From: a phage
DNA length: 64,000 nt
Strand: one strand, 5' to 3'
NCBI GenBank assembly: GCA_024449565.1
Contig: GCA_024449565.1_4810.1
In this document: positions 56 to 31,873 of the stretch, piece by piece
How the letters are laid out: every line of letters begins with the position of its first letter
Numbering within the stretch: position 1 is the first letter of the stretch
The notes under the pieces: model-generated
Database searches by the model: none
Told to the model about the DNA's origin: nothing
The model's input: the letters and a program-made list of their open reading frames with translations, nothing else
Position numbers and translations under genes: made by a program

Positions 56-150
56 TATAAAGTATCGCGGCAACGCGTATCATCCGTATCATCCGTAAGA
101 TTCTTTTGAAAACAACTACTTACTTGATACGGATGATACGTCATTATACG
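56..150. repeat. Iteron-like repeat element A
   Basis: TATAAAGTATCGCGGCAACGCGTATCATCCGTATCATCCGTAAGA (tandem CGTATCATC) followed by inverted copy TACGGATGATACG and CGTCATTATACG; near-identical element at about 14962-15090. Confidence 0.6.
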
Positions 151-1247: not shown

Positions 1248-3623
1248 TCAACCTTGCTTCGGTGAATTAGTAGGATTATTGAGTGCTCCATATGCTTGAG
1301 AGCAATCACCTTTCAACCACTCCTTGAATGAGTTTACATCTAATTCATGGATTGAATCGAATCCGTTCCAACCGTTACCAAATGATGCCTGATAAGCTTC
1401 TTTCGCTTCTTCTGCTGAATCGAATCCAAGCATACACTTGTGCTCATCAAATTCACCAGAATAATTATCATTTTGGTTAACGATGAATACTTTAGGAGAC
1501 TTCATATTTGGGCCAACAAAACAGTCGACTTCATCACCATCAGCACCCTTGGTGCCTTTGATGAATCCGTAGTGGTGCGGCATTTTGACTGCCCATTCAC
1601 CATCAAGGCTGTTACCCCTACGAATGCTGTTGCGAGGATTCTCGATGCCAAGGATCATCCCGTGCAACTTCATCTTAGGCAGCGACGCGGCATCCATCTT
1701 CCCTACGTTGTGGCGTAAGTTGATGACGTGTCCTTTAACGCTTGGAAGGGTAGACGGTTGCACCGACCGTGAATCTTTTTGAGGGTCAAAATCCACATCC
1801 TGACCCTCTTTCAGGTAGTAATCCGCAATACCCTCCAGACCTTCTTTCAACTGCGTTAGGACATCAACCTGATGGCTTGATTCATCATCGGTATCGTCCA
1901 TGTTGATTTCGACAGGCGCTTTGTCAGGGTTTTCCGCCAACTCACCACGCGCGGCACCCTCTGGCATAATACCTGTTTCGCTATAGAACTGGCCGCCCAT
2001 CTTAACGACATCAGCTTTCGCCTGTTCAATAGCGGCCTTACCTTGCAGGACTTCACCAGCAGACTTGCCAAGCAATGCCATATTCTCTGGAGACATCCCT
2101 GGGGTTTCTTCTGCTGCGTCTTCCGGCAGACGGTTGTAGCCGCTGTTTTTGTCGTCTTTGATGCGGTCGCGCTCTTCATCAGGAGAAATGACGCCAGCAT
2201 CAATAAGAGTTTTGCCAGTGTTGGCTCGCTTATCATTGATTTCTGCAAGTTGAGTAGCAGTAAGTGAGCCAACTGGTTCCCATGCAACCTTAACATCGAC
2301 GTCCACCCCTTCTGATTTGAGAAGGATTTTGTAATGGCGGTCGAGAATTTTTGTCAGGTCATGCTGCTGGCACGTTTCCAACTCTTCGTGATAGCTGACC
2401 ATCTCGAATTCACCAGTGGCGTTAAAGCCTTTTGGCGAAGTCCCAAGCAGTTTGGTCGACGGAACTTTTGCGATTGCGGCCACAAGCTGGTACTGGTTCA
2501 TGATGATACTGTCGAAGTCTGACAAGTTGATGTCAAACTGGTCCATCTCTTCTTTTTGGCCAAGCACTTTGACTGCATAGTTGTCGCGGTACTTGATCCA
2601 CATCATCAGACGTTCTGCAAAAGACCGCTCATTGGCAATAGCCTTGTCAACGTCGGTCCGCAGCGTCGTTGTACGCTTGGACATCGCCAGCAATGGCGCT
2701 TCGTTAGCGGTACGTTCAGCGGCATAGATGCGTTCATAAATCTGCTGAGTCAGAGGAATGCCGCCGTAAATATAAGTCGGCTTGAGAATATCAGCTGGCT
2801 CATCATTGCGCAAGATGATGAGGTGACTTCGATGATAACGTTGTCCGCTGATCACCCAGTATTCTGGATCATAGAAGTGCTGTGATGCAGGGTCTGCGGT
2901 ATTTTCAGACGTCAAAAATGGCATCATCCAATAAGGGTCAACCTGAATGATTCCCTTATAAGACCCCTTTGTCACACCATCAATGTTAAAAGGCTTGCTG
3001 TAATATTCTGGGTCATCGCTACGCACATCAAATATGATGACGCGGATACCAAAAATATTTTTGAATCGTTCGGCTTCAACTAAGTGCTCTTTGATATTAA
3101 ATTCTTTATCAATTTGCTTTAGGCGTTCGCTTGCCTGCACTGACAATTCTGACTCAGAACTGGATTTGACTTCCCAACCTTTACGGACCGCATCGCGGCC
3201 TACCATGGAACACGCCTTGTTCACCAGCCAATGCTGTGCGATGATGGCACAAGCTTGATAGCCGATGAATGACTGTGACAAATACCAGTTTTGAAGTTGA
3301 ATAGGTACTGTGTATGGGTTGACCTGCCCTTCTGAACTAATGTTCTTTAAGGCATTGTCCATAACTTTTTTGGATACTGTTGCGGAATCGACTGAACGGC
3401 CTTTTATGATAGCAACACCGTCGCCATTAATATCAGGCTCATATAAAGGGAAGTCATCAACCGTTTTAAAGGTCGGTCGATTGCTTTCAGTCTTTTCCCA
3501 GCGTTGACCGCTGCCGCGCCTTTCAAGGCGTTCAAACGGTGCCAATGGGTCGCCTGGCGGCATCTCCGCTGGTTCGGCTTCTGGTTGCGTCTTCTCCCAG
3601 AGTTTTATGCCAAGAATTTTCAT
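1248..3623 (-). CDS. portal protein with C-terminal inorganic-pyrophosphatase-like domain
   Basis: Large ORF between terminase and Mu F-like gene; ATG at 3623 with AGGTGG SD (track ORF begins at an upstream TTG); C-terminal about 190 aa contain MPHHYGFIKGTKGADGDEVDCFV and AEEAKEAYQASF, matching the family I pyrophosphatase core. Confidence 0.6.
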   Translation of the reverse strand: MKILGIKLWEKTQPEAEPAEMPPGDPLAPFERLERRGSGQRWEKTESNRPTFKTVDDFPLYEPDINGDGVAIIKGRSVDSATVSKKVMDNALKNISSEGQVNPYTVPIQLQNWYLSQSFIGYQACAIIAQHWLVNKACSMVGRDAVRKGWEVKSSSESELSVQASERLKQIDKEFNIKEHLVEAERFKNIFGIRVIIFDVRSDDPEYYSKPFNIDGVTKGSYKGIIQVDPYWMMPFLTSENTADPASQHFYDPEYWVISGQRYHRSHLIILRNDEPADILKPTYIYGGIPLTQQIYERIYAAERTANEAPLLAMSKRTTTLRTDVDKAIANERSFAERLMMWIKYRDNYAVKVLGQKEEMDQFDINLSDFDSIIMNQYQLVAAIAKVPSTKLLGTSPKGFNATGEFEMVSYHEELETCQQHDLTKILDRHYKILLKSEGVDVDVKVAWEPVGSLTATQLAEINDKRANTGKTLIDAGVISPDEERDRIKDDKNSGYNRLPEDAAEETPGMSPENMALLGKSAGEVLQGKAAIEQAKADVVKMGGQFYSETGIMPEGAARGELAENPDKAPVEINMDDTDDESSHQVDVLTQLKEGLEGIADYYLKEGQDVDFDPQKDSRSVQPSTLPSVKGHVINLRHNVGKMDAASLPKMKLHGMILGIENPRNSIRRGNSLDGEWAVKMPHHYGFIKGTKGADGDEVDCFVGPNMKSPKVFIVNQNDNYSGEFDEHKCMLGFDSAEEAKEAYQASFGNGWNGFDSIHELDVNSFKEWLKGDCSQAYGALNNPTNSPKQG

Positions 3624-7316: not shown

Positions 7317-9227
7317 ATGCCAAGGCTAATATTCAAAAACAACTTTGAGGTCGCGCTCGCTCAGCCAGCGACGACTTCAGACACCACAATCACAATCCGC
7401 TCAGGGTCGGGCTTTCCGACCTTGGGCGCAAACGAGCGTGTAGTGGCGACAGTCGTCGACGCTGCAACAGGCCTCCAATTCGAAATCATCACTGTAACAG
7501 CCGTGGTTGGAAACGTGCTAACCGTGCAGCGTGCACAGGAAGGGACTGCAGCGCGTGCATGGAGCGTCGGAGATTTTTTATCCATAAGGGTGACGGCTGC
7601 CATATTGACAAGCACAGTAAGGAATTTTGGAGAATTACCTTCTGGAATAAACTTAAATGCCCTTACTGGTTCTTGGTTCGGTCAATACCAGCAGTCTTCT
7701 AATTCTGCGGCTTCGCAAGTTCTGAATTATCCTGTAGCCCAATCAGGCAGCCTTGAGGTTATTTGCTCGGCAAACAACTCTGGTGACCAATCTTGCACGC
7801 AAATATACAGCACGAATCCTGACAACAAGCAGTACAAAAGAACTTATAATTCAGAAACAAGCACATGGTCTACTTGGGCTAAAATATATAACTCTTCCGA
7901 CGTGATTCCAGTCTCCAATGGAGGGACTGGTGTTTCAGACATAGGATCAATAAGAAGAGCAATATTGGTGCAAGGACTTGAATGTAATGATCAAACTGGT
8001 CCCCAATCATACAACAGCTATCGTTCACCAAATTCAGCATACACATGGAAAATAGATAACTCAGGACTTGTGCAAGTCATAAAGACTTCTGATGGTTCTG
8101 CAGTGCCAATACCTATTGAATCAGGAGGGACTGGTGGAATAACTGCTTATAGTGCAAGGGTTAATCTCTCTTTGGATAGGCTGCGCCAAGAAGGTGCTTA
8201 TACAGAACTGAATTCTGCGAACGGAAGATATAGATTTCTTGTAAATGATTCAGGAGATTGGGGAGGTTTTGATGGTTCCACAAACGGCTGGAAGCCATTG
8301 GCAATAGCGCAGGGAGGGACTGGATCAACCACGTTGGAAGGAGCAAGAACGAATCTGAAAATTGACAGGTTCTTGCAAGGTGATATTGATACAAAAATAT
8401 CAACGCCTGATTCGCAATACAACTTTTTCATCACTGACGCTGATTGGGGTCTTTATGATGTAACATCACTAAATAGAGTTGCACTCCCAATTGTCAGCGG
8501 CGGCACAGGCGGAGTAACTGCTGTTGAATCTTGCAAGTCTCTCGCAGCGATGCATTATAAATACCCAGCGCAAACATCATTTGGGCAGCAATACATGGAG
8601 ACTGGGGTTGGATATTACAGCACTGATCAGTCACCAAGTCCAGGTGGAAGCGGTTCTCCATATAACTATGCCGAGATACTTACTATATCTGAATTTGGTA
8701 ATGGAGCTAACTATTCTCAAATCGCATTTTCAGTGTTGACGGAACAACCGCCGCGATACAGACAAAGGTTTGACTCTAATCCAAGGTTGACTAATTGGCG
8801 AGATTTCCTTATTCGCGATTTGAATACCAGCGTAGACAGCAACGGATTCATAAAAATTGCTTCACCAATAGTCAAAATAAGATTTGATGGATCATTTGAG
8901 CTGAACAGCGAGTCAGAAGGCTGCACAGTGTCAAGAGAAGGAAAGGGGCACTATTTGATAAGCGGTTGCCTCGGATTAAATAGTGATGCCGCCTGGGGAG
9001 GCGTTAACGGCGGCTTTGAAATTCCAGTTGATGTGAATAAACAGCCTAGAATTTGGCTTGACTATAAAGTGAATGAAGATGGATCAGTTGACGTATTCAC
9101 ATATCACAGGGTGCACAATGATGCCCCAGTTTTTGCAAGGAATAACCTTGAAGGTTATGCAGACGGAGACCCAATAGACATACCAAAGGATGCATTTATC
9201 TCTGTGAGGGTGCAAATGCCAAAATAA
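7317..9227 (+). CDS. tail fiber protein (GGTG-repeat type)
   Basis: Four repeats of the (S/E/A/V)-GGTG-x-(S/T) motif (SNGGTGVSD, ESGGTGGIT, AQGGTGSTT, VSGGTGGVT) typical of phage tail fibers; GAGGA SD. Confidence 0.7.
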   Translation: MPRLIFKNNFEVALAQPATTSDTTITIRSGSGFPTLGANERVVATVVDAATGLQFEIITVTAVVGNVLTVQRAQEGTAARAWSVGDFLSIRVTAAILTSTVRNFGELPSGINLNALTGSWFGQYQQSSNSAASQVLNYPVAQSGSLEVICSANNSGDQSCTQIYSTNPDNKQYKRTYNSETSTWSTWAKIYNSSDVIPVSNGGTGVSDIGSIRRAILVQGLECNDQTGPQSYNSYRSPNSAYTWKIDNSGLVQVIKTSDGSAVPIPIESGGTGGITAYSARVNLSLDRLRQEGAYTELNSANGRYRFLVNDSGDWGGFDGSTNGWKPLAIAQGGTGSTTLEGARTNLKIDRFLQGDIDTKISTPDSQYNFFITDADWGLYDVTSLNRVALPIVSGGTGGVTAVESCKSLAAMHYKYPAQTSFGQQYMETGVGYYSTDQSPSPGGSGSPYNYAEILTISEFGNGANYSQIAFSVLTEQPPRYRQRFDSNPRLTNWRDFLIRDLNTSVDSNGFIKIASPIVKIRFDGSFELNSESEGCTVSREGKGHYLISGCLGLNSDAAWGGVNGGFEIPVDVNKQPRIWLDYKVNEDGSVDVFTYHRVHNDAPVFARNNLEGYADGDPIDIPKDAFISVRVQMPK

Positions 9228-10297: not shown

Positions 10298-10546
10298 ATG
10301 AATCAAAATGAATCAGTAGCGTTCTTACAATGGCTGGAAGGTGTTGTGGAGTATTACGCTCCAAAAGACCGTTTCATCTTTCAAGGCAAAAGTTATAAGC
10401 GCAAAGGACAGGCCCAGAAAGCTGCGCGCAAGTACTGGAAAGAAGTTTATTCAGAGTTCTTTCAGCAGATGGGCATCATCGGCTCGACCGTATCCGGCGA
10501 CCCAGCACAGTTGGTATCGATTGATGAATCCAATCGTCACAATTAA
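10298..10546 (+). CDS. hypothetical protein
   Basis: GAGGAT SD 5 nt upstream of ATG. Confidence 0.45.
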   Translation: MNQNESVAFLQWLEGVVEYYAPKDRFIFQGKSYKRKGQAQKAARKYWKEVYSEFFQQMGIIGSTVSGDPAQLVSIDESNRHN

Positions 10547-10621
10547 TAAATCGATTTGAATGCCGCGCTATGCGGCTTTATTATAGTTATTGTTAATCAC
10601 CCAAATATTGAAGGTAATGAT

Positions 10622-11002
10622 ATGTCAAATAAAAATGATTCTGTGAGTCACACATATACTAAAGGCAGCGGCATTGCTTTTGGTTCCAGCATCAAAATTG
10701 ACGCTCCACCTTGCTATTCTGATGGATTGGAAGTTGGCAACCGCGACTTAACATGGGTTTTACGTCGCCAATCCGATTTAGAAGAGAAGCTGGAAAATAT
10801 TGAGCGTTCTCTTGAAAGTCTTCGCGACCAGCTTTTTGGTTGTCCTGAAGATGAGTCAAAACCTGAATCATATGCAGCCAATCGCGGTTTGATTGATAAT
10901 ATGCTTGCTATTACCGCTCGATCAATTGGTAAAACTGTGTCCATTGAATCATTGATCAGCCAGATTGCGGATGGCTTTGGTGATGCCCATAAGAGCGAAT
11001 AG
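10622..11002 (+). CDS. hypothetical protein
   Basis: Start trimmed to ATG MSNKND with GAAGGTAA SD. Confidence 0.45.
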   Translation: MSNKNDSVSHTYTKGSGIAFGSSIKIDAPPCYSDGLEVGNRDLTWVLRRQSDLEEKLENIERSLESLRDQLFGCPEDESKPESYAANRGLIDNMLAITARSIGKTVSIESLISQIADGFGDAHKSE

Positions 11003-11032
11003 TGGGTGGATGTTGCTTTAACCGTGAATCGT

Positions 11033-11059
11033 GGGTCGCTTAGTGCGGCCCTTTATTTT
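11033..11059 (+). terminator. putative intrinsic terminator
   Basis: GGGTCGC-TTAGT-GCGGCCC hairpin followed by TTTATTTT. Confidence 0.45.
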
Positions 11060-11062
11060 GCC

Positions 11063-11134
11063 TGCCGCGCAGGAGTGTACTGCCGCGCAGGAGTGTACTG
11101 CCGCGCAGGAGTGTACTGCCGCGCAGGAGTGTAC
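11063..11134. repeat. perfect tandem repeat, 4 x 18 bp (TGCCGCGCAGGAGTGTAC)
   Basis: Four identical head-to-tail units read directly from the sequence; a partial fifth unit follows. Confidence 0.9.
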
Positions 11135-11755
11135 TGCAAATTTCCTGTGGGTACAAAATAGTACGGTACTGTCTAGGACTTTTTCTTTGAAAAGTTAGTG
11201 GACCAAATGTGTCGTATTTTGATTAGTGTACCGCAAATTCCATCAAGTAGCAAAACGCACCAAAAGACCCATGCCCTAAAAACCACACGAACGCAATAAT
11301 CAATCGCCGTTACAGTTTCCAGCGTTACAATTAGAAAGCGAATGATTCGATGCATAATAATATGAAGCATAATGATTCGAAAGCTAATGGTTGCGCGTAG
11401 GATGATATCGGGAGGGATTATTCGAGATGCGTGTAATTTCGCATGCGTACTATTTTCGGGCGAAGGGTCGGCATATTCTTCGTTTTAGCTCGGAACGAAG
11501 GGAAAGTTTTGCGCCTTTATAAAACAACGACTTACGCGACCCGCCTTAACGGTCCGATATAGGTGTCTATATAAAACAAGGACTTACGCGATGTTCTCCA
11601 TTTAACGTAATACCTGTTATGCGAACTAAGGCGCATCTCGACGAAGATTGTGCGACGACGAAGGGAAGGATAAAGGAGTTTTCGCGTAGGAGCTCATCGA
11701 GATAGGGACGAAGAAAAGCCGCGACTAAGCGCGGCCTATTAGTAACGGAAGGGTA

Positions 11756-12046
11756 TTATAAGGAGACGATTTTAAAGAAAGAGTAACGGCCTTCGCCTTC
11801 GGATACCGCGATATATTCGCCGCCGAACTCCGTAGCAAAATAAACCTTGCCTTCGATAGTAACGCGGAAGGTAGAAATATCTTCCTCTTCGAGTTCCGTA
11901 AATTCGCTAAAATCGATAGGACTATGAAGCTCCTCGATAGTCGCATCTACGTTAAAGAGATAAACGTTTTTAAGTTTTTCGCCAAATACGTTAGAGTTTT
12001 CGGAAGTTTCGACGCGAGCGGAACGGATAGCGGCCAAAGTAATCAT
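11756..12046 (-). CDS. small acidic protein, paralog family member 1
   Basis: AGGAGA SD; 96 aa, acidic; N-terminus MITLAAIRSARVE and NVDATIEE resemble those of the 12682 and 12154 genes. Confidence 0.5.
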   Translation of the reverse strand: MITLAAIRSARVETSENSNVFGEKLKNVYLFNVDATIEELHSPIDFSEFTELEEEDISTFRVTIEGKVYFATEFGGEYIAVSEGEGRYSFFKIVSL

Positions 12047-12153
12047 AATATTCTCCTAGTTAGTCGGGAGGGTAGCGACCTATTCGCTACCTCATCCCCT
12101 CTCGATATAAAACATTATAGTCTTAGTGTACGAAGAAGTAAAGCACTTTTTCG

Positions 12154-12456
12154 TTATTCTGCGATAAAATATTTATAAGCTTTATCGCCTTCTACGTCGA
12201 TATACTCGACGATAATTAACGCTTCGCCGCGCGGCGTAACCGTCTCGATAAGGGTAACGGCTTCGTCGTCGGTCTTCGCGAAGCGGATTGCGCTACGTTC
12301 GGCGTACTTAATATCATCGAAGGAAAGGCCGACGAAAGCGACCGCGCGGACCTTAATAATGGTAGATTCTAGTTCCGCGTTAACGGCAGCGATAAGAGAG
12401 CGAACGGTTAAACGGTCTTCGTCGTAAGTAAGGATAGAAGAGATTAAAGTAGTCAT
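12154..12456 (-). CDS. small acidic protein, paralog family member 2
   Basis: Start trimmed to ATG MTTLISS with GGGAG SD; same N-terminal pattern as neighbours. Confidence 0.45.
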   Translation of the reverse strand: MTTLISSILTYDEDRLTVRSLIAAVNAELESTIIKVRAVAFVGLSFDDIKYAERSAIRFAKTDDEAVTLIETVTPRGEALIIVEYIDVEGDKAYKYFIAE

Positions 12457-12681
12457 AATAAAACTCCCGATGCTAGTAGAAGGAAGGGCCATCACCCGTC
12501 TCGATACAAACAAGTATACGCGAGTGTACGAAGAAGTAAAGAAAAAAGATAAAATAATTTATCTCATTTTTATCGAAAAAGTGCTTTACTTTTTTCTACA
12601 CTATATTATAATGTACTCATATCGGGACGGGATGAGTTAACGAATAGGTCGTTAACGCCCGTCGAGAACTAGGAGTTTAAA

Positions 12682-12966
12682 ATGGCTATTCTTAACGTTT
12701 CTTCCATCCGTAACGCTATCGTCGAGAACTACGGCGTAAAACAAATTTTATCCGAAGTTTACGCCGCGAACGTAGACCAAACTATCGAGGCGGGTGGGGT
12801 AACGGTCGCCGAGGCTTTTAAACTTTACGCGGCGCTACCGGAATCGGACCGCGAAGCCTTCGAAGTAAACGTTAACGGATACTTCTTCGAAGCGGTCGAA
12901 ATCGGTAACATCTTACTCGTTATGGGCGAAGAAGAATTTGATACCTTCTCCCTCGTCGAAGCGTAA
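12682..12966 (+). CDS. small acidic protein, paralog family member 3
   Basis: AGGAG SD; MAILNVSSIRNAIVE and NVDQTIEA shared with the 11756 gene. Confidence 0.5.
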   Translation: MAILNVSSIRNAIVENYGVKQILSEVYAANVDQTIEAGGVTVAEAFKLYAALPESDREAFEVNVNGYFFEAVEIGNILLVMGEEEFDTFSLVEA

Positions 12967-13046
12967 GAGAGGATTTTTAGAGCGTCGTGCGCGGCGCTTT
13001 AATAAAATTCTTTCGCGCCTAGCGCCCTAACAAATAGGAGTTCATT

Positions 13047-13673
13047 ATGGTTAGCTTAAATCGTTTCTCGACTAGCGGCGACGTTATCGCAACTAAGACC
13101 GCCGACCTCGTTGCATTTTATAATGCAAATTCAGGTTCGAAGCCGATTAAAAAATTTGCGGACCGCCGGACCGCCGAGACTCGCGTAATCGCGCTAATCG
13201 AGTCCTTAAACGCGCTCGATGAGCCGTCCAACGAATCGCCAATCCCCGACGCGAAGCCGCGCGAGGAAGTGTCCAGCGATGTAAAAACGCATAAGGCGCG
13301 TGCGGTCGTTAAAAAGGCAGAGCCGACGCAGGAAGAACTCGACGCGATGAGCGATGAAGAGTATGAAGCCTTCGTTAAGAGCGGCTTAAACGATAGTGCA
13401 AATTGCGTAGTGCAAAATGGAACTCCTTCCCATCGCCGTTCGAATAGCGAAGGTATTGCAAAAAGTTGGGACAATAAGGAAGTGGCGCAAAAGCGTCTCA
13501 CCCGTAACGGCGTTATGGTCGAGGGTGTAGGAGAGTTCAAATCGGTCCGCGCAGCTTTCGCCGCGCTGGGATTACCGGATAGCAAGCACATTCGCTTCCG
13601 TATGAAGCTTAAGGAAGCTGGGCGCTTGAACTTCGAGTTCGGCAACAAGTCCTTTACCTTCCAGATTATCTAA
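13047..13673 (+). CDS. hypothetical protein
   Basis: AGGAG SD; 208 aa; contains two in-frame copies of the TAGTGCAAA(A)T motif. Confidence 0.5.
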   Translation: MVSLNRFSTSGDVIATKTADLVAFYNANSGSKPIKKFADRRTAETRVIALIESLNALDEPSNESPIPDAKPREEVSSDVKTHKARAVVKKAEPTQEELDAMSDEEYEAFVKSGLNDSANCVVQNGTPSHRRSNSEGIAKSWDNKEVAQKRLTRNGVMVEGVGEFKSVRAAFAALGLPDSKHIRFRMKLKEAGRLNFEFGNKSFTFQII

Positions 13674-13723
13674 TCGAATGGCGGCCCTTCGGGGTCGCTT
13701 TTCATAGTGCAAATTGGTGGCTT

Positions 13724-13987
13724 ATGAATACGCTTATTCTCATCGCTACGTTGTCCATCGGAAGTGGTCGCACCTTATCCCTTTATGACCATAGTGCAAA
13801 TTGCGCCTATCCTACGCGCGTTGCGGCGATAGTTAATAGTGCAAATAAGATGCTATTCGAGACTTGCTGGAGGGTCGATAACGAGAAAGGTCGGGTAGTC
13901 TTAGGCTATAGTGCAAATCTGCTGGTGGAGTCGTTCGATTGGACGGTTGAAGGTCGTAAATTGTTACGTAAAGTGACTAAAAGATGA
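13724..13987 (+). CDS. hypothetical protein (questionable; ORF spans three motif copies)
   Basis: ORF with GGTGG upstream, but three ATAGTGCAAAT copies fall in-frame inside it, so coding status is uncertain. Confidence 0.3.
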   Translation: MNTLILIATLSIGSGRTLSLYDHSANCAYPTRVAAIVNSANKMLFETCWRVDNEKGRVVLGYSANLLVESFDWTVEGRKLLRKVTKR

Positions 13988-14101
13988 CTTATAATAATAC
14001 ACTTTCTAACGCGTTTATGGTTACAACCTTCCCCGTCGTATTACCGATGGCCCTAGAAGTGGAGAAAATGTGTTCTAGGGCCGTTTTATAGTGCAAATTG
14101 G

Positions 14102-14575
14102 CTAGTGGCGGGAGAATTGCTCTCCTTCTTTGGCCGCCTCTCCAAAATCCTTGTAGAAATCATCCATGGAACGGCCCATTTTACTATTGCCATTTTCATC
14201 AATCATCGTGATGCCGTAGATGATATTCAGTTCACGAATGGCATTAAGTTTGGCTGATGCCGCGACTTCTGGATCACGCACAAGCTTCACTAGATTGTGG
14301 ATGGAACTCTTTACGCTCCACAATTCCTTCAATGGCATCTCTTCCATACGCTTTTTGTAGCGCATCTTGTAGTACGGATTGCGCTGAGTGCACAGGATTC
14401 GCTGGCCAGTGTAGTTATCGGTCGCAACCTCCATGCCAAATACTAGTGCAAAAGCTGCGCGCATGTCATGGCCTTGAATAACAAGGTCAATGAACTCATC
14501 GAATAATGCCTGATTATGCTCTGCAAATCGCGGGTCTTCAAAGTCTTCAGGCATTGCTACATAATCTTGACTCAT
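14102..14575 (-). CDS. hypothetical protein (possible HTH DNA-binding; small-terminase-like is speculative)
   Basis: Start trimmed to ATG MSQDYVA; the start codon lies inside a motif copy; helix-rich N-terminal segment FIDLVIQGHDMRAAFALVFG. Confidence 0.4.
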   Translation of the reverse strand: MSQDYVAMPEDFEDPRFAEHNQALFDEFIDLVIQGHDMRAAFALVFGMEVATDNYTGQRILCTQRNPYYKMRYKKRMEEMPLKELWSVKSSIHNLVKLVRDPEVAASAKLNAIRELNIIYGITMIDENGNSKMGRSMDDFYKDFGEAAKEGEQFSRH

Positions 14576-14802
14576 AGTGCAAATCCCATAGTGCAAATTA
14601 ATAGTGTGAATTATACAATGAATGAACATTATATTCAAGTGCAGATTGATGTTCAAATTGGCTGTAAACGTACATAAATCATAGTGCTAAATGAATAGCG
14701 GACCGTGATGCGTGGTGTACTGTTTGATACGTATAAAAGAAATCCATCCCTTTCGCCGCTTGCTATGCAAATCAATGACTTAGCCGCTGCTGGCTGGTTG
14801 AA

Positions 14803-15090
14803 GCGTATCATGACGTATCATCCGTATTGCCGCAAGTCTTTGTTTTTACTTATATCTTACGGATAATACGTATAAATATAAGTTCAGTATAAGTATGAGG
14901 ATGTAGAAAAAAATTAATTTAAATTAATTCAAAATGGAGTTAATTGTTTTTTTCAAAGTTGTATAAAGTATAGCGGCGACGCGTATCATCCGTATCATCC
15001 GTAAGATGTACCATTGAACCCAGTCGCGGCGCACCATAGAAGTGTGTGGAGTGAACTACGGATAGGTCCAAATCTTACGTCATTATACGT
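14803..15090. repeat. Iteron-like repeat region B (homolog of element A)
   Basis: GCGTATCATGACGTATCATCCGTATTGCCGCAAG, inverted TTACGGATAATACG, then TATAAAGTATAGCGGCGACGCGTATCATCCGTATCATCCGTAAGATG (near-identical to 56-100) and CGTCATTATACG; AT-rich tract at about 14897-14961. Confidence 0.6.
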
Positions 15091-29903: not shown

Positions 29904-30743
29904 ATGGCCGAAGCAATCAAAGTATTATCTAAAGAAGAAAAACAAGCCGCTGCAGCAGAACGTCGTCGCGTAGCTGAAGAAAAACGTTTGGCTAAAAAGA
30001 AAGAAGCCGAAGAAAAGCGCCAGAAGCGCGAACAGGAAAAACAAGCCAAGCGTGAAGAAGCCGCGCTGAAACGCAAGCAGGCTGCTGACGAGAAGGCTCA
30101 GAAGCGTGCTGAAGAAGCAGCTAAGAAAGCTAAAGAGCGTGCAGAAAAGGCCGCTGCTAAGAAAGCAGAGCGTGAAGCCGCTAAAGCAGCAAAAGAAATC
30201 GAAAAGGCAAAGGCTAAAGAAGAAGCCAAGCGCCTGAAAGCCGAGCAGGCTGCGGCCAAGAAAGCAGAGCGTGATCAAGCCCGTGCTGCAGCGAAGGCCG
30301 AAAAAGAGAAGGCCAAAGAAGAAGCTAAAGCGAAACGCAAGGCAGAGCGTGAAGCTGCTAAGATTGCGGCGAAAGAAGCTGCAGAACAGCAGAAAGAACA
30401 GCGTAAGAAAGAAGCTGAAGAACGTCGCAAAGCCATCGCAGAACGTAAGGCTGCTAAAAAGGCAAACGGTCAGCGTCGTGCAAAAGCCACTCACTTCATC
30501 TACACTGGCAATGGCCTGAGCCAGCCGCAAGAGCATTCCACCCGTGGACGCGTTCTGGCGGCGATCAAAGAAGGCGAAGTTGGCGTGGCACAGTCTATCG
30601 ATGAGCTGGGCGAAAAAGTTAAAGATCAACTGTTTGGCGCTTCCGTTCGCTCCTACCTGAGCAAGCTGGAAGAGATGGGACACATCGAGTTTGTCGATGT
30701 TGAATCCAACGACGATGCTGAAGACGGTGATCAAGCGGAATAA
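29904..30743 (+). CDS. Lys/Ala/Glu-rich low-complexity protein with structured C-terminal domain
   Basis: About 190 aa of KAE-rich sequence then an 85-aa C-terminal domain; preferred-codon usage unlike neighbours; own terminator. Confidence 0.55.
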   Translation: MAEAIKVLSKEEKQAAAAERRRVAEEKRLAKKKEAEEKRQKREQEKQAKREEAALKRKQAADEKAQKRAEEAAKKAKERAEKAAAKKAEREAAKAAKEIEKAKAKEEAKRLKAEQAAAKKAERDQARAAAKAEKEKAKEEAKAKRKAEREAAKIAAKEAAEQQKEQRKKEAEERRKAIAERKAAKKANGQRRAKATHFIYTGNGLSQPQEHSTRGRVLAAIKEGEVGVAQSIDELGEKVKDQLFGASVRSYLSKLEEMGHIEFVDVESNDDAEDGDQAE

Positions 30744-30771
30744 CCTGTAGGACGGTTATATAGCGGTAATT

Positions 30772-30798
30772 GACCCACACTTGATGTGGGTCTTTTTT
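30772..30798 (+). terminator. rho-independent terminator
   Basis: GACCCACAC-TTGA-TGTGGGTC hairpin followed by TTTTTT. Confidence 0.7.
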
Positions 30799-30824
30799 CG
30801 TCTGTACTAAATAGAAATGACTTG

Positions 30825-30853
30825 TTGCTGTAAATTAATTTAGCTATTATACT
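30825..30853 (+). promoter_or_regulatory. sigma70-like promoter TTGCTG-17-TATACT
   Basis: Hexamers upstream of the 30878 gene. Confidence 0.4.
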
Positions 30854-30877
30854 TCTCATATCACCCACAAAGGAAAA

Positions 30878-31873
30878 ATGAACATGAAACAACCTGTAAT
30901 GATTATCGGCGGCGGCTTGGCAGGACTTATTACCGCGTGTCACTTCCCGAACTCCATTGTGTACGAAGCAGGGGAACGAGCGCCACAGCACAAGGCGCTG
31001 CTACGCTTTCGCGGCGAAGAAGTAAGCCGTATTACCGGAATCCCTTTTAAGGCCGTGACAGTTGACAAGGCTGTGTATTTTCGCGGTAACTACTATAACG
31101 ACCATTGCCCAATCAACCTTGCCAATATGTATTCGATGAAGGTCACCAATCAGTTTGGTAGCCGTTCAATCATGAAGCTTAAAACTGCAACGCGTTATAT
31201 TGCGCCGGACGACTTCTATGATCAGCTTGTCGATAAACTGGGTGATCGCATATTCTTCAATACTCCGGTTGACACGCTTTGCGGCTATAGCGAGACGCCA
31301 ATCATCAATACATCGCCGCTGCCAGTCATGATGAAGCTGGCAGGAATTGATCAAAATATTGACTTTTCATTCGATAAAGCAAACATTCGCGTTTACCGCT
31401 TTAAGATTAAACGTAAGTGTGAACTGTATCAAACCATTTACTTTCCTGATTGCTCCGTCAGAACTTACCGTGCATCAATCACTGGCGACACATTGATCAT
31501 TGAAACAATTCCTTTGGTTAGCGTAAGTGAAGCCGCAGTTGAAGCCGCTGGCGGCATTACTCGTTACCGTGACATTAAGTTGCGTGCAGAAGTTGACGAA
31601 GTGTTGACGGCCTTTGGTCTTTCATGGAGTGACATTTCTCTCGAAGAAGTTGAAAAGGTCGACCAGAAGTATGGCAAGATTGTCGACATTCCGAAAGACT
31701 TGCGACACGCTCTACTCCTACAGCTGACCATGGATTTGAACGTATTCAGTGTCGGTCGATTCGCTACTTGGCGAAACATTTTGCTTGATGACGTTGCTCA
31801 TGACCTTGTTGAAGTTGAAAAACTCATCAAAGCAAATAACTATCAAAAATTTGCTTATATTGCTAATAAATAA
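30878..31873 (+). CDS. FAD/NAD(P)-binding Rossmann-fold oxidoreductase
   Basis: N-terminal dinucleotide-binding motif VMIIGGGLAGL; 331 aa. Confidence 0.45.
   Translation: MNMKQPVMIIGGGLAGLITACHFPNSIVYEAGERAPQHKALLRFRGEEVSRITGIPFKAVTVDKAVYFRGNYYNDHCPINLANMYSMKVTNQFGSRSIMKLKTATRYIAPDDFYDQLVDKLGDRIFFNTPVDTLCGYSETPIINTSPLPVMMKLAGIDQNIDFSFDKANIRVYRFKIKRKCELYQTIYFPDCSVRTYRASITGDTLIIETIPLVSVSEAAVEAAGGITRYRDIKLRAEVDEVLTAFGLSWSDISLEEVEKVDQKYGKIVDIPKDLRHALLLQLTMDLNVFSVGRFATWRNILLDDVAHDLVEVEKLIKANNYQKFAYIANK

What the first reader, a model, noticed from the sequence alone, without database searches (positions are those of the whole stretch)
11063..11134. Perfect 4 x 18-bp tandem repeat at the left edge of the island
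Four identical head-to-tail copies of TGCCGCGCAGGAGTGTAC follow a terminator and precede a non-coding stretch rich in GTAC palindromes. Perfect identity suggests recent expansion or selection as an iteron or protein-binding array; it could also mark an insertion boundary.
Basis: seen in the sequence. Interest (0 to 1): 0.45.

Follow-up and report, generated by a model that had tools for sequence, protein, structure and literature searches.

The report
Isolate-specific 18-bp tandem repeat expansion
An 18-base stretch that occurs once in every related E. coli phage occurs four times in this one, in non-coding DNA just outside the genome's terminal repeat; it looks like an ordinary recent copying slip, not a working protein-binding array.

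Summary
Window 11062-11137 holds 4.2 perfect head-to-tail copies of an 18-bp unit, directly after an intrinsic terminator.

The window is a Wifcevirus, an E. coli myophage of the WFC/WFH/Mansfield group. All 28 GenBank relatives and 3 IMG/VR contigs carry the unit exactly once. The unit-unit junction is absent from IMG/VR, JGI metagenomes, GTDB genomes and E. coli genomes. The array is therefore private to this isolate and recent.

The single-copy unit is bounded by a 4-bp direct repeat (CTGC...CTGC). The same ~100 bp also shows other independent micro-expansions in relatives. Both point to slipped-strand duplication in unconstrained DNA.

The array lies 125 bp outside its inner boundary.

Origin and iteron features were not met: no conserved multiplicity, no AT-rich unwinding element, no DnaA boxes. 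The insertion-boundary features tested were not met either.

A residual possibility is that the array multiplies part of a conserved 16-nt motif that occurs twice beside the cut site.

Verdict: an ordinary, probably neutral copy-number variant (VNTR) in an interesting neighbourhood. Low interest.

The parts
10622..11002 (+). Last gene of the + strand cluster downstream of the tail-fibre gene (126 aa, hypothetical protein).
   Evidence: ORF list. Homologous CDS annotated in Mansfield_010, WFH_00007 and WFC_00008. No Pfam or PHROG family.
11033..11059 (+). Intrinsic terminator: stem-loop GGGTCGC-TTAGT-GCGGCCC followed by TTTATTTT.
   Evidence: Terminator scan. Annotated as a terminator in WFH and WFC. 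The hairpin is retained in the RNA fold.
11062..11137 (.). It is private to this isolate. The unit holds a small palindrome, CCTGC-cgc-GCAGG (first copy 11061-11073).
   Evidence: Single copy in all relatives. Junction absent from public collections.
11128..11143 (+). Copy 1 of a genus-conserved 16-nt direct repeat, AGTGTACTGCAAATTT. Its first 10 nt are rebuilt at every unit-unit junction of the array.
   Evidence: (family D5). The motif occurs twice, 97 nt apart, only in Wifcevirus contigs.
11160..11170 (.). Perfect 11-bp palindrome AGTAC-G-GTACT, which supplies two of the clustered GTAC sites.
   Evidence: Read from the sequence. Conserved in all 16 aligned sequences.
11225..11240 (+). Copy 2 of the 16-nt direct repeat (AGTGTACCGCAAATTC here). 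It ends 22 nt from the terminal-repeat boundary.
11263..14935 (.). The inner boundary is 11262|11263 and the physical left end of the genome is 14935|14936. The window is the reverse complement of the GenBank records.
   Evidence: Boundaries mapped by exact 20-mers from WFH, Mansfield, Ro157lw and SP13. WFC's boundary is 81 bp further out, at 11181|11182. [quoted passage not shown] Inferred by homology; not shown for this isolate.
11716..11737 (-). Intrinsic terminator of the convergent minus-strand genes. Together with 11033-11059 it brackets about 650 nt of non-coding DNA.
   Evidence: Annotated as a terminator in WFH, WFC and Mansfield.
14102..14656 (-). Small terminase subunit gene, inside the terminal repeat and about 280-830 bp from the left physical end.
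   Evidence: Match to PDB 7uxe 'Small terminase', E = 1.1e-32. Annotated as terminase small subunit in Mansfield. PHROG 4783.

Best explanation
The array is a recent, isolate-specific tandem expansion (a VNTR) of an 18-bp segment that is single-copy in the rest of the genus. It was most likely produced by slipped-strand mispairing or unequal exchange and tolerated because the DNA is non-coding.

In the ancestral arrangement the segment CTGCCGCGCAGGAGTGTA is followed by a second CTGC. That 4-bp direct repeat lets the nascent strand re-anneal one unit back and duplicate the 18 bp. Once two copies exist, further slippage readily gives three and four. This mechanism is inferred.

The array sits between the intrinsic terminator of the tail-fibre-side gene cluster and the conserved non-coding sequence that holds the inner boundary of the ~3.67-kb direct terminal repeat. 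It is therefore outside any gene, downstream of termination, and on the distal side of the conserved elements next to the cut site.

As an array it most likely does nothing. It adds 54 bp (0.08% of the genome) and does not change the length of the terminal repeat.

Shown: the repeat itself, its uniqueness to this isolate, the microhomology, the non-coding position, and the neighbouring micro-expansions in relatives. Inferred: the slippage mechanism, neutrality, and the position of the genome ends in this isolate (by homology).
For: - Perfect 4.2 copies, so no time for mutations to accumulate.
- All relatives carry one copy: 28 GenBank records span 303-317 bp for a 361-bp query (361 minus 54 is 307). 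The exceptions are Mansfield, at 341 bp because of a different 35-bp expansion, and ECO71P1, a partial match of 243 bp for query 65-361 (297 minus 54).
- Explicit alignment of 15 relatives shows exactly one unit each; three of them have a CG insertion in the unit.
- The unit-unit junction 30-mer has 0 hits in IMG/VR, JGI metagenomes and GTDB genomes, and the region has no match in 5,426 E. coli genomes. A 17-mer junction gave 43 metagenome hits, all single chance matches in unrelated contigs, most of them of high GC content.
- The single-copy unit is bounded by CTGC...CTGC in most relatives.
- The same ~100 bp carries other independent small expansions: Mansfield (GTGGGTC)n adding 35 bp, F13/SP13 GTGAATC duplicated, Bas99 GTGGGT duplicated, and a CG insertion in F13/SP13/Bas100. 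A 45-bp indel lies in a 15-bp repeat zone further in.
- No conserved reading frame: relatives differ by indels of 1, 2, 7 and 35 nt across the interval.
- The array lies after a terminator and between convergent terminators.
- Folding is unexceptional: DNA z = -1.4 and -1.6, RNA z = -2.5.
Against: - The surrounding non-coding DNA is not free to drift. Its diversity (pi 0.013-0.04) is equal to or below that of the coding flank (0.04), so the single-copy unit may belong to a functional element.
- Each junction of the array rebuilds 10 of the 16 nt of a conserved motif that occurs twice next to the terminal-repeat boundary. A quantitative effect on a DNA-binding protein therefore cannot be excluded.
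- Neutrality was not measured.
- Only one genome with the array is available, so within-population copy-number variation is unknown.
Confidence: 0.76

Rival explanations
1. The array is an adaptive multiplication of a protein-binding site used in genome-end recognition or packaging. The conserved non-coding DNA just outside the terminal-repeat boundary would be the recognition region for the terminase (or another end-processing protein). The array would add three partial copies (AGTGTACTGC) of the conserved 16-nt motif, plus three extra copies of the palindrome CCTGCcgcGCAGG, changing occupancy or cutting efficiency at the right-end cut 125 bp away.
For: - The array lies 125 bp from the boundary that four independent records place at the same nucleotide.
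- The 16-nt motif occurs twice, 97 nt apart, only here in the window and only in Wifcevirus contigs.
- The boundary neighbourhood is the most conserved part of the gap (pi 0.013).
- The small terminase gene lies within the terminal repeat.
- From my own knowledge: T7-type phages carry arrays of short repeats beside their terminal repeats, and lambda cosB and P1 pac consist of repeated short sites near the cut.
Against: - 31 of 31 relatives work with one copy.
- Neither the unit nor the 16-nt motif is found at the other terminus, and the two boundaries share no sequence above chance (5 shared 8-mers versus 4.6 expected).
- The array copies hold only 10 of the motif's 16 nt.
- No binding data exist.
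Confidence: 0.12
2. The array is an iteron-type replication origin: four repeated sites bind an initiator and melt an adjacent AT-rich element, as in lambda ori or iteron plasmids.
For: Four direct repeats of 18 bp, each with internal dyad symmetry, superficially resemble the four ~18-19-bp iterons of lambda ori (my own knowledge). The location is non-coding.
Against: - The multiplicity is absent in all relatives.
- No AT-rich stretch above the window's 95th percentile lies next to it, and no DnaA-box-like site lies within 2 kb.
- The copies are strictly head-to-tail with no spacers.
- No recognisable initiator gene is adjacent: the neighbours have no family assignment.
- A degenerate repeat family that is conserved across the genus lies elsewhere, at 11342-11430, and would be a better origin candidate.
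Confidence: 0.03
3. The array is a sequencing or assembly artefact at a terminal-repeat boundary, where coverage doubles and assembly graphs break.
For: The Mansfield assembly had to be closed by PCR with primers that bracket exactly this interval (PMC6753283). The boundary is 125 bp away.
Against: - The whole array is 76 bp, shorter than any current read, so copy number is read directly.
- Assembler artefacts at contig ends are duplications of k-mer length, not 18-bp periodic arrays.
- The flanks are collinear with all relatives.
Confidence: 0.05
4. The array marks the boundary of an inserted mobile island, as an attachment-site or target-duplication scar.
For: Gene orientation and composition change to its right, and a long non-coding stretch follows.
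Against: - The 3.7 kb to the right is present and collinear in all 28 relatives.
- It equals the terminal repeat duplicated at both ends of the WFH, WFC, Ro157lw and SP13 records.
- It contains the essential small terminase gene.
- There is no tRNA gene in the window.
- No matching repeat exists at the other edge.
Confidence: 0.02

Closest known systems
Variable-number tandem repeats (minisatellite-type) arising by slipped-strand mispairing in microbial and phage genomes
   Same: Perfect head-to-tail copies, copy number differing between close relatives (1 versus 4), microhomology at the unit borders, a non-coding location, and neighbouring independent micro-expansions.
   Different: Nothing essential. 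Only one allele with more than one copy has been seen so far, so polymorphism within a population is not documented.
Short-repeat arrays next to the terminal repetition of T7/T3-type phages, just inside each terminal repeat (my own knowledge: Dunn and Studier 1983; not checked here)
   Same: Short tandem or clustered repeats in non-coding DNA immediately beside a direct terminal repeat, close to the concatemer cut site.
   Different: Those arrays are imperfect, conserved features of the genome at both ends. Here the array is perfect, is private to one isolate, and lies at one boundary only. The terminal repeat is 3.7 kb rather than about 160-230 bp, and the phage is an unrelated myovirus.
Terminase recognition sites built of repeated short elements: lambda cosB R1-R3 (16-bp sites) and P1 pac hexamer clusters (my own knowledge)
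   Same: A conserved pair of 16-nt direct repeats lies 22 and 119 nt from the inferred cut site. The array duplicates part of one of them.
   Different: No binding has been shown. The array itself is not conserved. Those cos and pac systems produce cohesive ends or headful ends, not fixed long direct terminal repeats.
Iterons of lambda ori and of iteron plasmids
   Same: Four direct repeats of about 18 bp with internal dyad symmetry.
   Different: The multiplicity is not conserved in relatives, there are no spacers between copies, and there is no adjacent AT-rich unwinding element, DnaA boxes or initiator gene. The membership features tested were not met.

Membership tests
VNTR / slippage-generated tandem duplication | Head-to-tail copies of (near-)identical sequence | tested here: met
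   4.2 copies, 100% identical.
VNTR / slippage-generated tandem duplication | Copy number differs among close relatives | tested here: met
   4 copies here, 1 copy in 28 GenBank records and 3 IMG/VR contigs. Junction absent elsewhere.
VNTR / slippage-generated tandem duplication | Short direct repeat (microhomology) bounding the ancestral single unit | tested here: met
   CTGC-CGCGCAGGAGTGTA-CTGC in most relatives. WFC and Bas99 have CGGC at the second position.
VNTR / slippage-generated tandem duplication | Lies in sequence that tolerates length change (no reading frame) | tested here: met
   Downstream of a terminator. Indels of 1, 2, 7 and 35 nt among relatives. ORFs over the array are repeat translations only.
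Iteron-type replication origin | Several repeated initiator sites conserved among related replicons | tested here: not met
   Single copy in all relatives.
Iteron-type replication origin | Adjacent AT-rich unwinding element and/or DnaA boxes | tested here: not met
   Highest 40-nt AT fraction next to the array is 0.68, below the window's 95th percentile of 0.70. The nearest DnaA-box-like site is at 9032.
Iteron-type replication origin | Binding by a cognate initiator protein | not testable with these tools
   Needs EMSA or footprinting. The neighbouring genes have no family assignment.
Terminase recognition / end-processing site (pac- or cos-like) | Located at or near the site where the genome end is cut | tested here: met
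   125 bp from the terminal-repeat boundary mapped from 4 records. This is by homology, not from reads of this isolate.
Terminase recognition / end-processing site (pac- or cos-like) | Element conserved among phages that share the terminase and the ends | tested here: not met
   The array is not conserved. Only the single unit and the 16-nt motif pair are.
Terminase recognition / end-processing site (pac- or cos-like) | Specific binding by the small terminase, and loss of packaging on deletion | not testable with these tools
   Experimental.
Boundary of an inserted mobile element | Presence/absence polymorphism of the flanked segment among relatives | tested here: not met
   The segment 11263-14935 is present and collinear in the relatives.
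Boundary of an inserted mobile element | Matching repeat at the other edge; integrase or tRNA target | tested here: not met
   The unit is found nowhere else. No shared sequence at the other edge. No tRNA gene. ORFs called in the segment were scanned: one is the small terminase, none matched an integrase or any other named family.
Direct terminal repeat of a Wifcevirus genome (identity of the 'island') | Same segment duplicated at both ends of linear genome records, with boundaries at conserved nucleotides | tested here: met
   WFH 3701 bp and WFC 3784 bp, both with 0 mismatches between the two copies. Ro157lw and SP13 end at the same nucleotide as WFH and Mansfield. The boundary 20-mers are present in the window.
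Direct terminal repeat of a Wifcevirus genome (identity of the 'island') | Read-start peaks and doubled coverage in this isolate | not testable with these tools
   No reads are available.

The most novel reading that the evidence does not exclude
The stretch just outside the right-end cut of the terminal repeat is a functional end-recognition region. Its core would be a pair of 16-nt direct repeats (AGTGTACTGCAAATTT, 97 nt apart, 22 nt from the cut). Under this reading the array is either a selected multiplication of partial binding sites that tunes end cutting or packaging in this isolate, or, together with the other private micro-expansions in the same 100 bp, a mutational footprint of the strand-displacement synthesis that regenerates the terminal repeat at concatemer junctions.
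Probability: 0.1. Interest if true: 0.45.

Novelty: new member of a known kind. Interest (0 to 1): 0.13.

Why it matters
On the best reading it matters little. It is a private length polymorphism, useful at most as a strain marker and as a warning for assembly or primer design near the terminal-repeat boundary.

The context is more useful than the array. The work places the physical genome ends of this phage, by homology, at window 11262|11263 and 14935|14936.

How phages with long, exact direct terminal repeats recognise and duplicate their ends is poorly understood. If the 16-nt motif pair were the recognition element, this genus would offer a tractable E. coli system, with a natural 1-copy versus 4-copy variant to compare.

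Tried and rejected
- **Iteron origin.** Rejected: single copy in relatives, and no unwinding element or DnaA boxes.
- **Insertion boundary.** Rejected: the flanked segment is the conserved terminal repeat.
- **Coding repeat.** Two ORFs (11006-11161 and 11031-11198) run through the array and would give hexapeptide repeats. Relatives have frame-breaking indels and the ORFs include the terminator, so this was rejected.
- **Known RNA family.** An Rfam scan of 10400-12200 at E <= 1 gave only one sub-threshold chance hit on the far terminator (NsiR4, 17 bits against a gathering score of 40).
- **Special DNA or RNA structure of the array.** Not exceptional against shuffles.
- **Unit, palindrome or 16-nt motif as a dispersed operator.** None occurs elsewhere in the window.
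- **Shared sequence bracketing the two terminal-repeat boundaries**, as in some long-repeat phages. None above chance.
- **A more permissive 17-nt junction scan of metagenomes.** Gave 43 hits, all chance matches in unrelated contigs.
- **Literature on T7 pac sites.** The search was swamped by 'PacBio' and gave nothing usable, so those comparisons rest on my own knowledge.
- **Family assignment of neighbouring proteins.** Only the small terminase could be named.

Full report
**1. The observation**

Reading the window shows TGCCGCGCAGGAGTGTAC four times in a row, without a mismatch, at 11063-11134. Tandem Repeats Finder extends the periodic stretch to 11062-11137: period 18, 4.2 copies, 100% matches, score 152. 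The next best tandem repeat in the 64-kb window scores 54. The 18-mer, allowing up to 3 mismatches, occurs only at these four positions; 0.03 matches are expected by chance and no shuffle of 100 reaches four.

The array begins three bases after the T-tract of an intrinsic terminator. The stem-loop is at 11033-11051 and is followed by TTTATTTT. That terminator closes the + strand gene 10622-11002.

The GTAC richness is also real, but local. There are 8 sites in 11077-11231. With the array collapsed to one copy, 5 sites in 110 nt is still the densest cluster in the window (P about 0.012). Over the whole window GTAC is not enriched (138 observed, 128 expected).

**2. What genome this is, and what the 'island' is**

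The region is 91-95% identical to 29 phage records of the genus Wifcevirus. These are E. coli and Shigella myophages such as WFC, WFH, FEC19, ECML-117 and Mansfield. They are distant relatives of Pbunavirus (PMC11990801). No tRNA gene is present in the window.

These phages have a direct terminal repeat of about 3.7 kb. [quoted passage not shown] From the records that carry both copies I computed repeats of 3701 bp (WFH) and 3784 bp (WFC), each with no mismatch between its two copies. Mapping by exact 20-mers gives these positions in the window, which is the reverse complement of the records:

| Feature | Window position | Source records |
|---|---|---|
| Physical left end of the genome | 14935\|14936 | WFH, by exact 20-mers |
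| Inner boundary of the repeat | 11262\|11263 (...ACGCACCA\|AAAGACCC...) | WFH, Mansfield; Ro157lw, SP13 |
| Inner boundary, outlier | 11181\|11182 | WFC only, 81 bp further out |

The segment 11263-14935 (3673 bp) is therefore the terminal repeat, inferred by homology. It contains the small terminase gene at 14102-14656 on the minus strand (PDB 7uxe 'Small terminase', E = 1.1e-32).

The array lies 125 bp outside this repeat (45 bp by the WFC boundary). In a concatemer that places it just beyond the right-end cut.

**3. Comparison with relatives**

A sensitive search with window 10960-11320 finds the region in 29 records (28 distinct phage records plus RefSeq duplicates). Each spans 303-317 bp for the 361-bp query, which is 361 minus 54 give or take small indels. 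There are two exceptions. Mansfield spans 341 bp. ECO71P1 is a partial match, 243 bp for query 65-361 (297 minus 54).

I fetched and aligned 15 relatives: 12 GenBank records and 3 IMG/VR contigs. Every one has exactly one copy of the unit. F13, SP13 and Bas100 carry a CG insertion in it.

The 30-nt unit-unit junction exists only when at least two copies are present. It has no match in IMG/VR, the JGI metagenomes or the GTDB genome collection. The region has no match in complete E. coli genomes. A shorter 17-nt junction gave 43 metagenome hits, all single chance matches in unrelated contigs, most of them of high GC content.

The four-copy array is thus private to this isolate.

**4. How it arose**

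In the single-copy state the unit is CTGC-CGCGCAGGAGTGTA and is followed by CTGC. That is a 4-bp direct repeat of the kind that allows a slipped nascent strand to re-pair one unit back.

The same ~100 bp shows other independent small expansions in relatives:

- (GTGGGTC)n adding 35 bp in Mansfield;
- GTGAATC duplicated in F13 and SP13;
- GTGGGT duplicated in Bas99;
- the CG insertion noted above.

A 45-bp indel lies in a 15-bp-periodic zone at 11330-11374 in Bas100. The Mansfield assembly had to be closed by PCR with primers that bracket this interval.

These length changes are not multiples of three, and the interval includes a terminator. The two ORFs that run through the array are therefore not genes. 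Single-strand folding of the array is not exceptional: DNA z = -1.4 and -1.6, RNA z = -2.5.

The most economical reading is a recent slippage expansion in DNA where length is unconstrained.

**5. Could the array still do something?**

The gap between the convergent terminators (11060-11715) is not drifting freely. Its pairwise diversity among 16 sequences is 0.013-0.04, lowest at the boundary itself, against 0.04 in the coding flank.

Just outside the boundary there is a genus-conserved pair of 16-nt direct repeats, AGTGTACTGCAAATTT, at 11128-11143 and 11225-11240. They are 97 nt apart, and the second ends 22 nt from the cut. The pair occurs only in Wifcevirus contigs in IMG/VR. Each unit-unit junction of the array rebuilds the first 10 nt of this motif. 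The unit also carries a palindrome, CCTGCcgcGCAGG, that is unique in the window.

The array could therefore add partial sites for a protein that acts at the genome end. Three points argue against this:

- 31 relatives function with one copy.
- Neither the motif nor the unit occurs at the other terminus.
- The two boundaries share no sequence above chance (5 shared 8-mers versus 4.6 expected).

I give this reading about 0.1.

**6. Other readings tested**

- **Iteron origin.** Multiplicity is not conserved. There is no AT-rich element above the window's 95th percentile and no DnaA-box-like site within 2 kb. No initiator gene is recognisable. Not met.
- **Insertion boundary.** The flanked segment is collinear in the relatives and equals the terminal repeat. 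There is no matching repeat at the other edge and no tRNA gene. Not met.
- **Artefact.** The array is 76 bp, shorter than a read, and its flanks are collinear. This is unlikely but cannot be checked without reads.
- **Known RNA family.** None.

**7. Comparison with what is known**

The array behaves like an ordinary VNTR, and the four defining features I could test are met.

It resembles two kinds of known element only in position and form. Both comparisons rest on my own knowledge and were not verified here. One is the short-repeat arrays beside the terminal repeats of T7-type phages. The other is the repeated terminase sites of lambda cosB and P1 pac. Its four 18-bp repeats likewise resemble the iterons of lambda ori.

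The membership features I could test for origins were not met. For terminase sites, proximity to the cut is met by homology, but conservation of the array is not.

**8. Verdict**

This is a private, probably neutral tandem expansion next to, but not at, the boundary of the phage's direct terminal repeat. Interest is low. The neighbourhood, a conserved non-coding gap holding the genome-end cut site with several repeated motifs, is more interesting than the array.

Noticed in passing
window 76-140 and 14814-15003: The 13-nt motif CGTATCATCCGTA is clustered in two places only: 76(+), 85(+), 128(-), and 14814(+), 14858(-, 1 mismatch), 14982(+), 14991(+). Allowing up to 2 mismatches there are 8 hits in the window, including one 2-mismatch hit at 13494, against 0.98 expected; 0 of 100 shuffles reach 8. 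The second cluster straddles the inferred physical left end of the genome (14935|14936). A 66-nt repeat (36-101 versus 14942-15007, 85% identical) carries the motif. It may be an operator, a promoter element or a terminus-associated site.
   Followed up: partly
window 11342-11430: A degenerate repeat family conserved across the genus, (A)ATGATTCGA(AAGC), has about five imperfect copies inside the terminal repeat, 80-170 bp from its boundary. Bas100 has a 45-bp deletion here. This stretch is the most variable part of the gap (pi about 0.095). It is more iteron-like than the focal array because it is old and conserved as a set.
   Followed up: partly
window 11495-11720: More repeated motifs lie in the same non-coding gap: CTTTATAAAACAACGACTTACGCGA and CTATATAAAACAAGGACTTACGCGA (11515 and 11567, 52 nt apart, 92% identical), and ACGAAGGGAA (11495, 11658, and a variant at 11707). 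They could be promoters or binding sites. No known RNA family matched.
   Followed up: no
window 11155-11165 and 11446-11456: A perfect 11-nt inverted repeat, AAAATAGTACG / CGTACTATTTT, flanks the inferred terminal-repeat boundary: 98 nt outside it and 183 nt inside it. It is conserved in Mansfield and WFH.
   Followed up: no
window 11181|11182 versus 11262|11263: The WFC record places the terminal-repeat boundary 81 bp further out than WFH, Mansfield, Ro157lw and SP13. The WFC position sits in a small hairpin-like sequence (ACTTTT-TCTTTG-AAAAGT). This is either a real difference in cutting or a difference in how the ends were called.
   Followed up: partly
L001 (Mansfield) 3110-3150, equivalent to window ~11030: Mansfield carries a private expansion of a 7-bp unit (GTGGGTC, 35 extra bp) that overlaps the 5' arm of the terminator stem. 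The GenBank record annotates a 54-aa CDS (CPT_Mansfield_009) across it, which is probably not a gene.
   Followed up: partly
window 30141-30472: An imperfect 99-nt-periodic repeat (GCAGAAAAGGCCGCTGCTAAGAAAGCAGAGCGTGA and variants) lies in a region of strong AT skew (0.35 at 30001-31000). It is probably a repeated Ala/Lys/Glu-rich protein segment.
   Followed up: no
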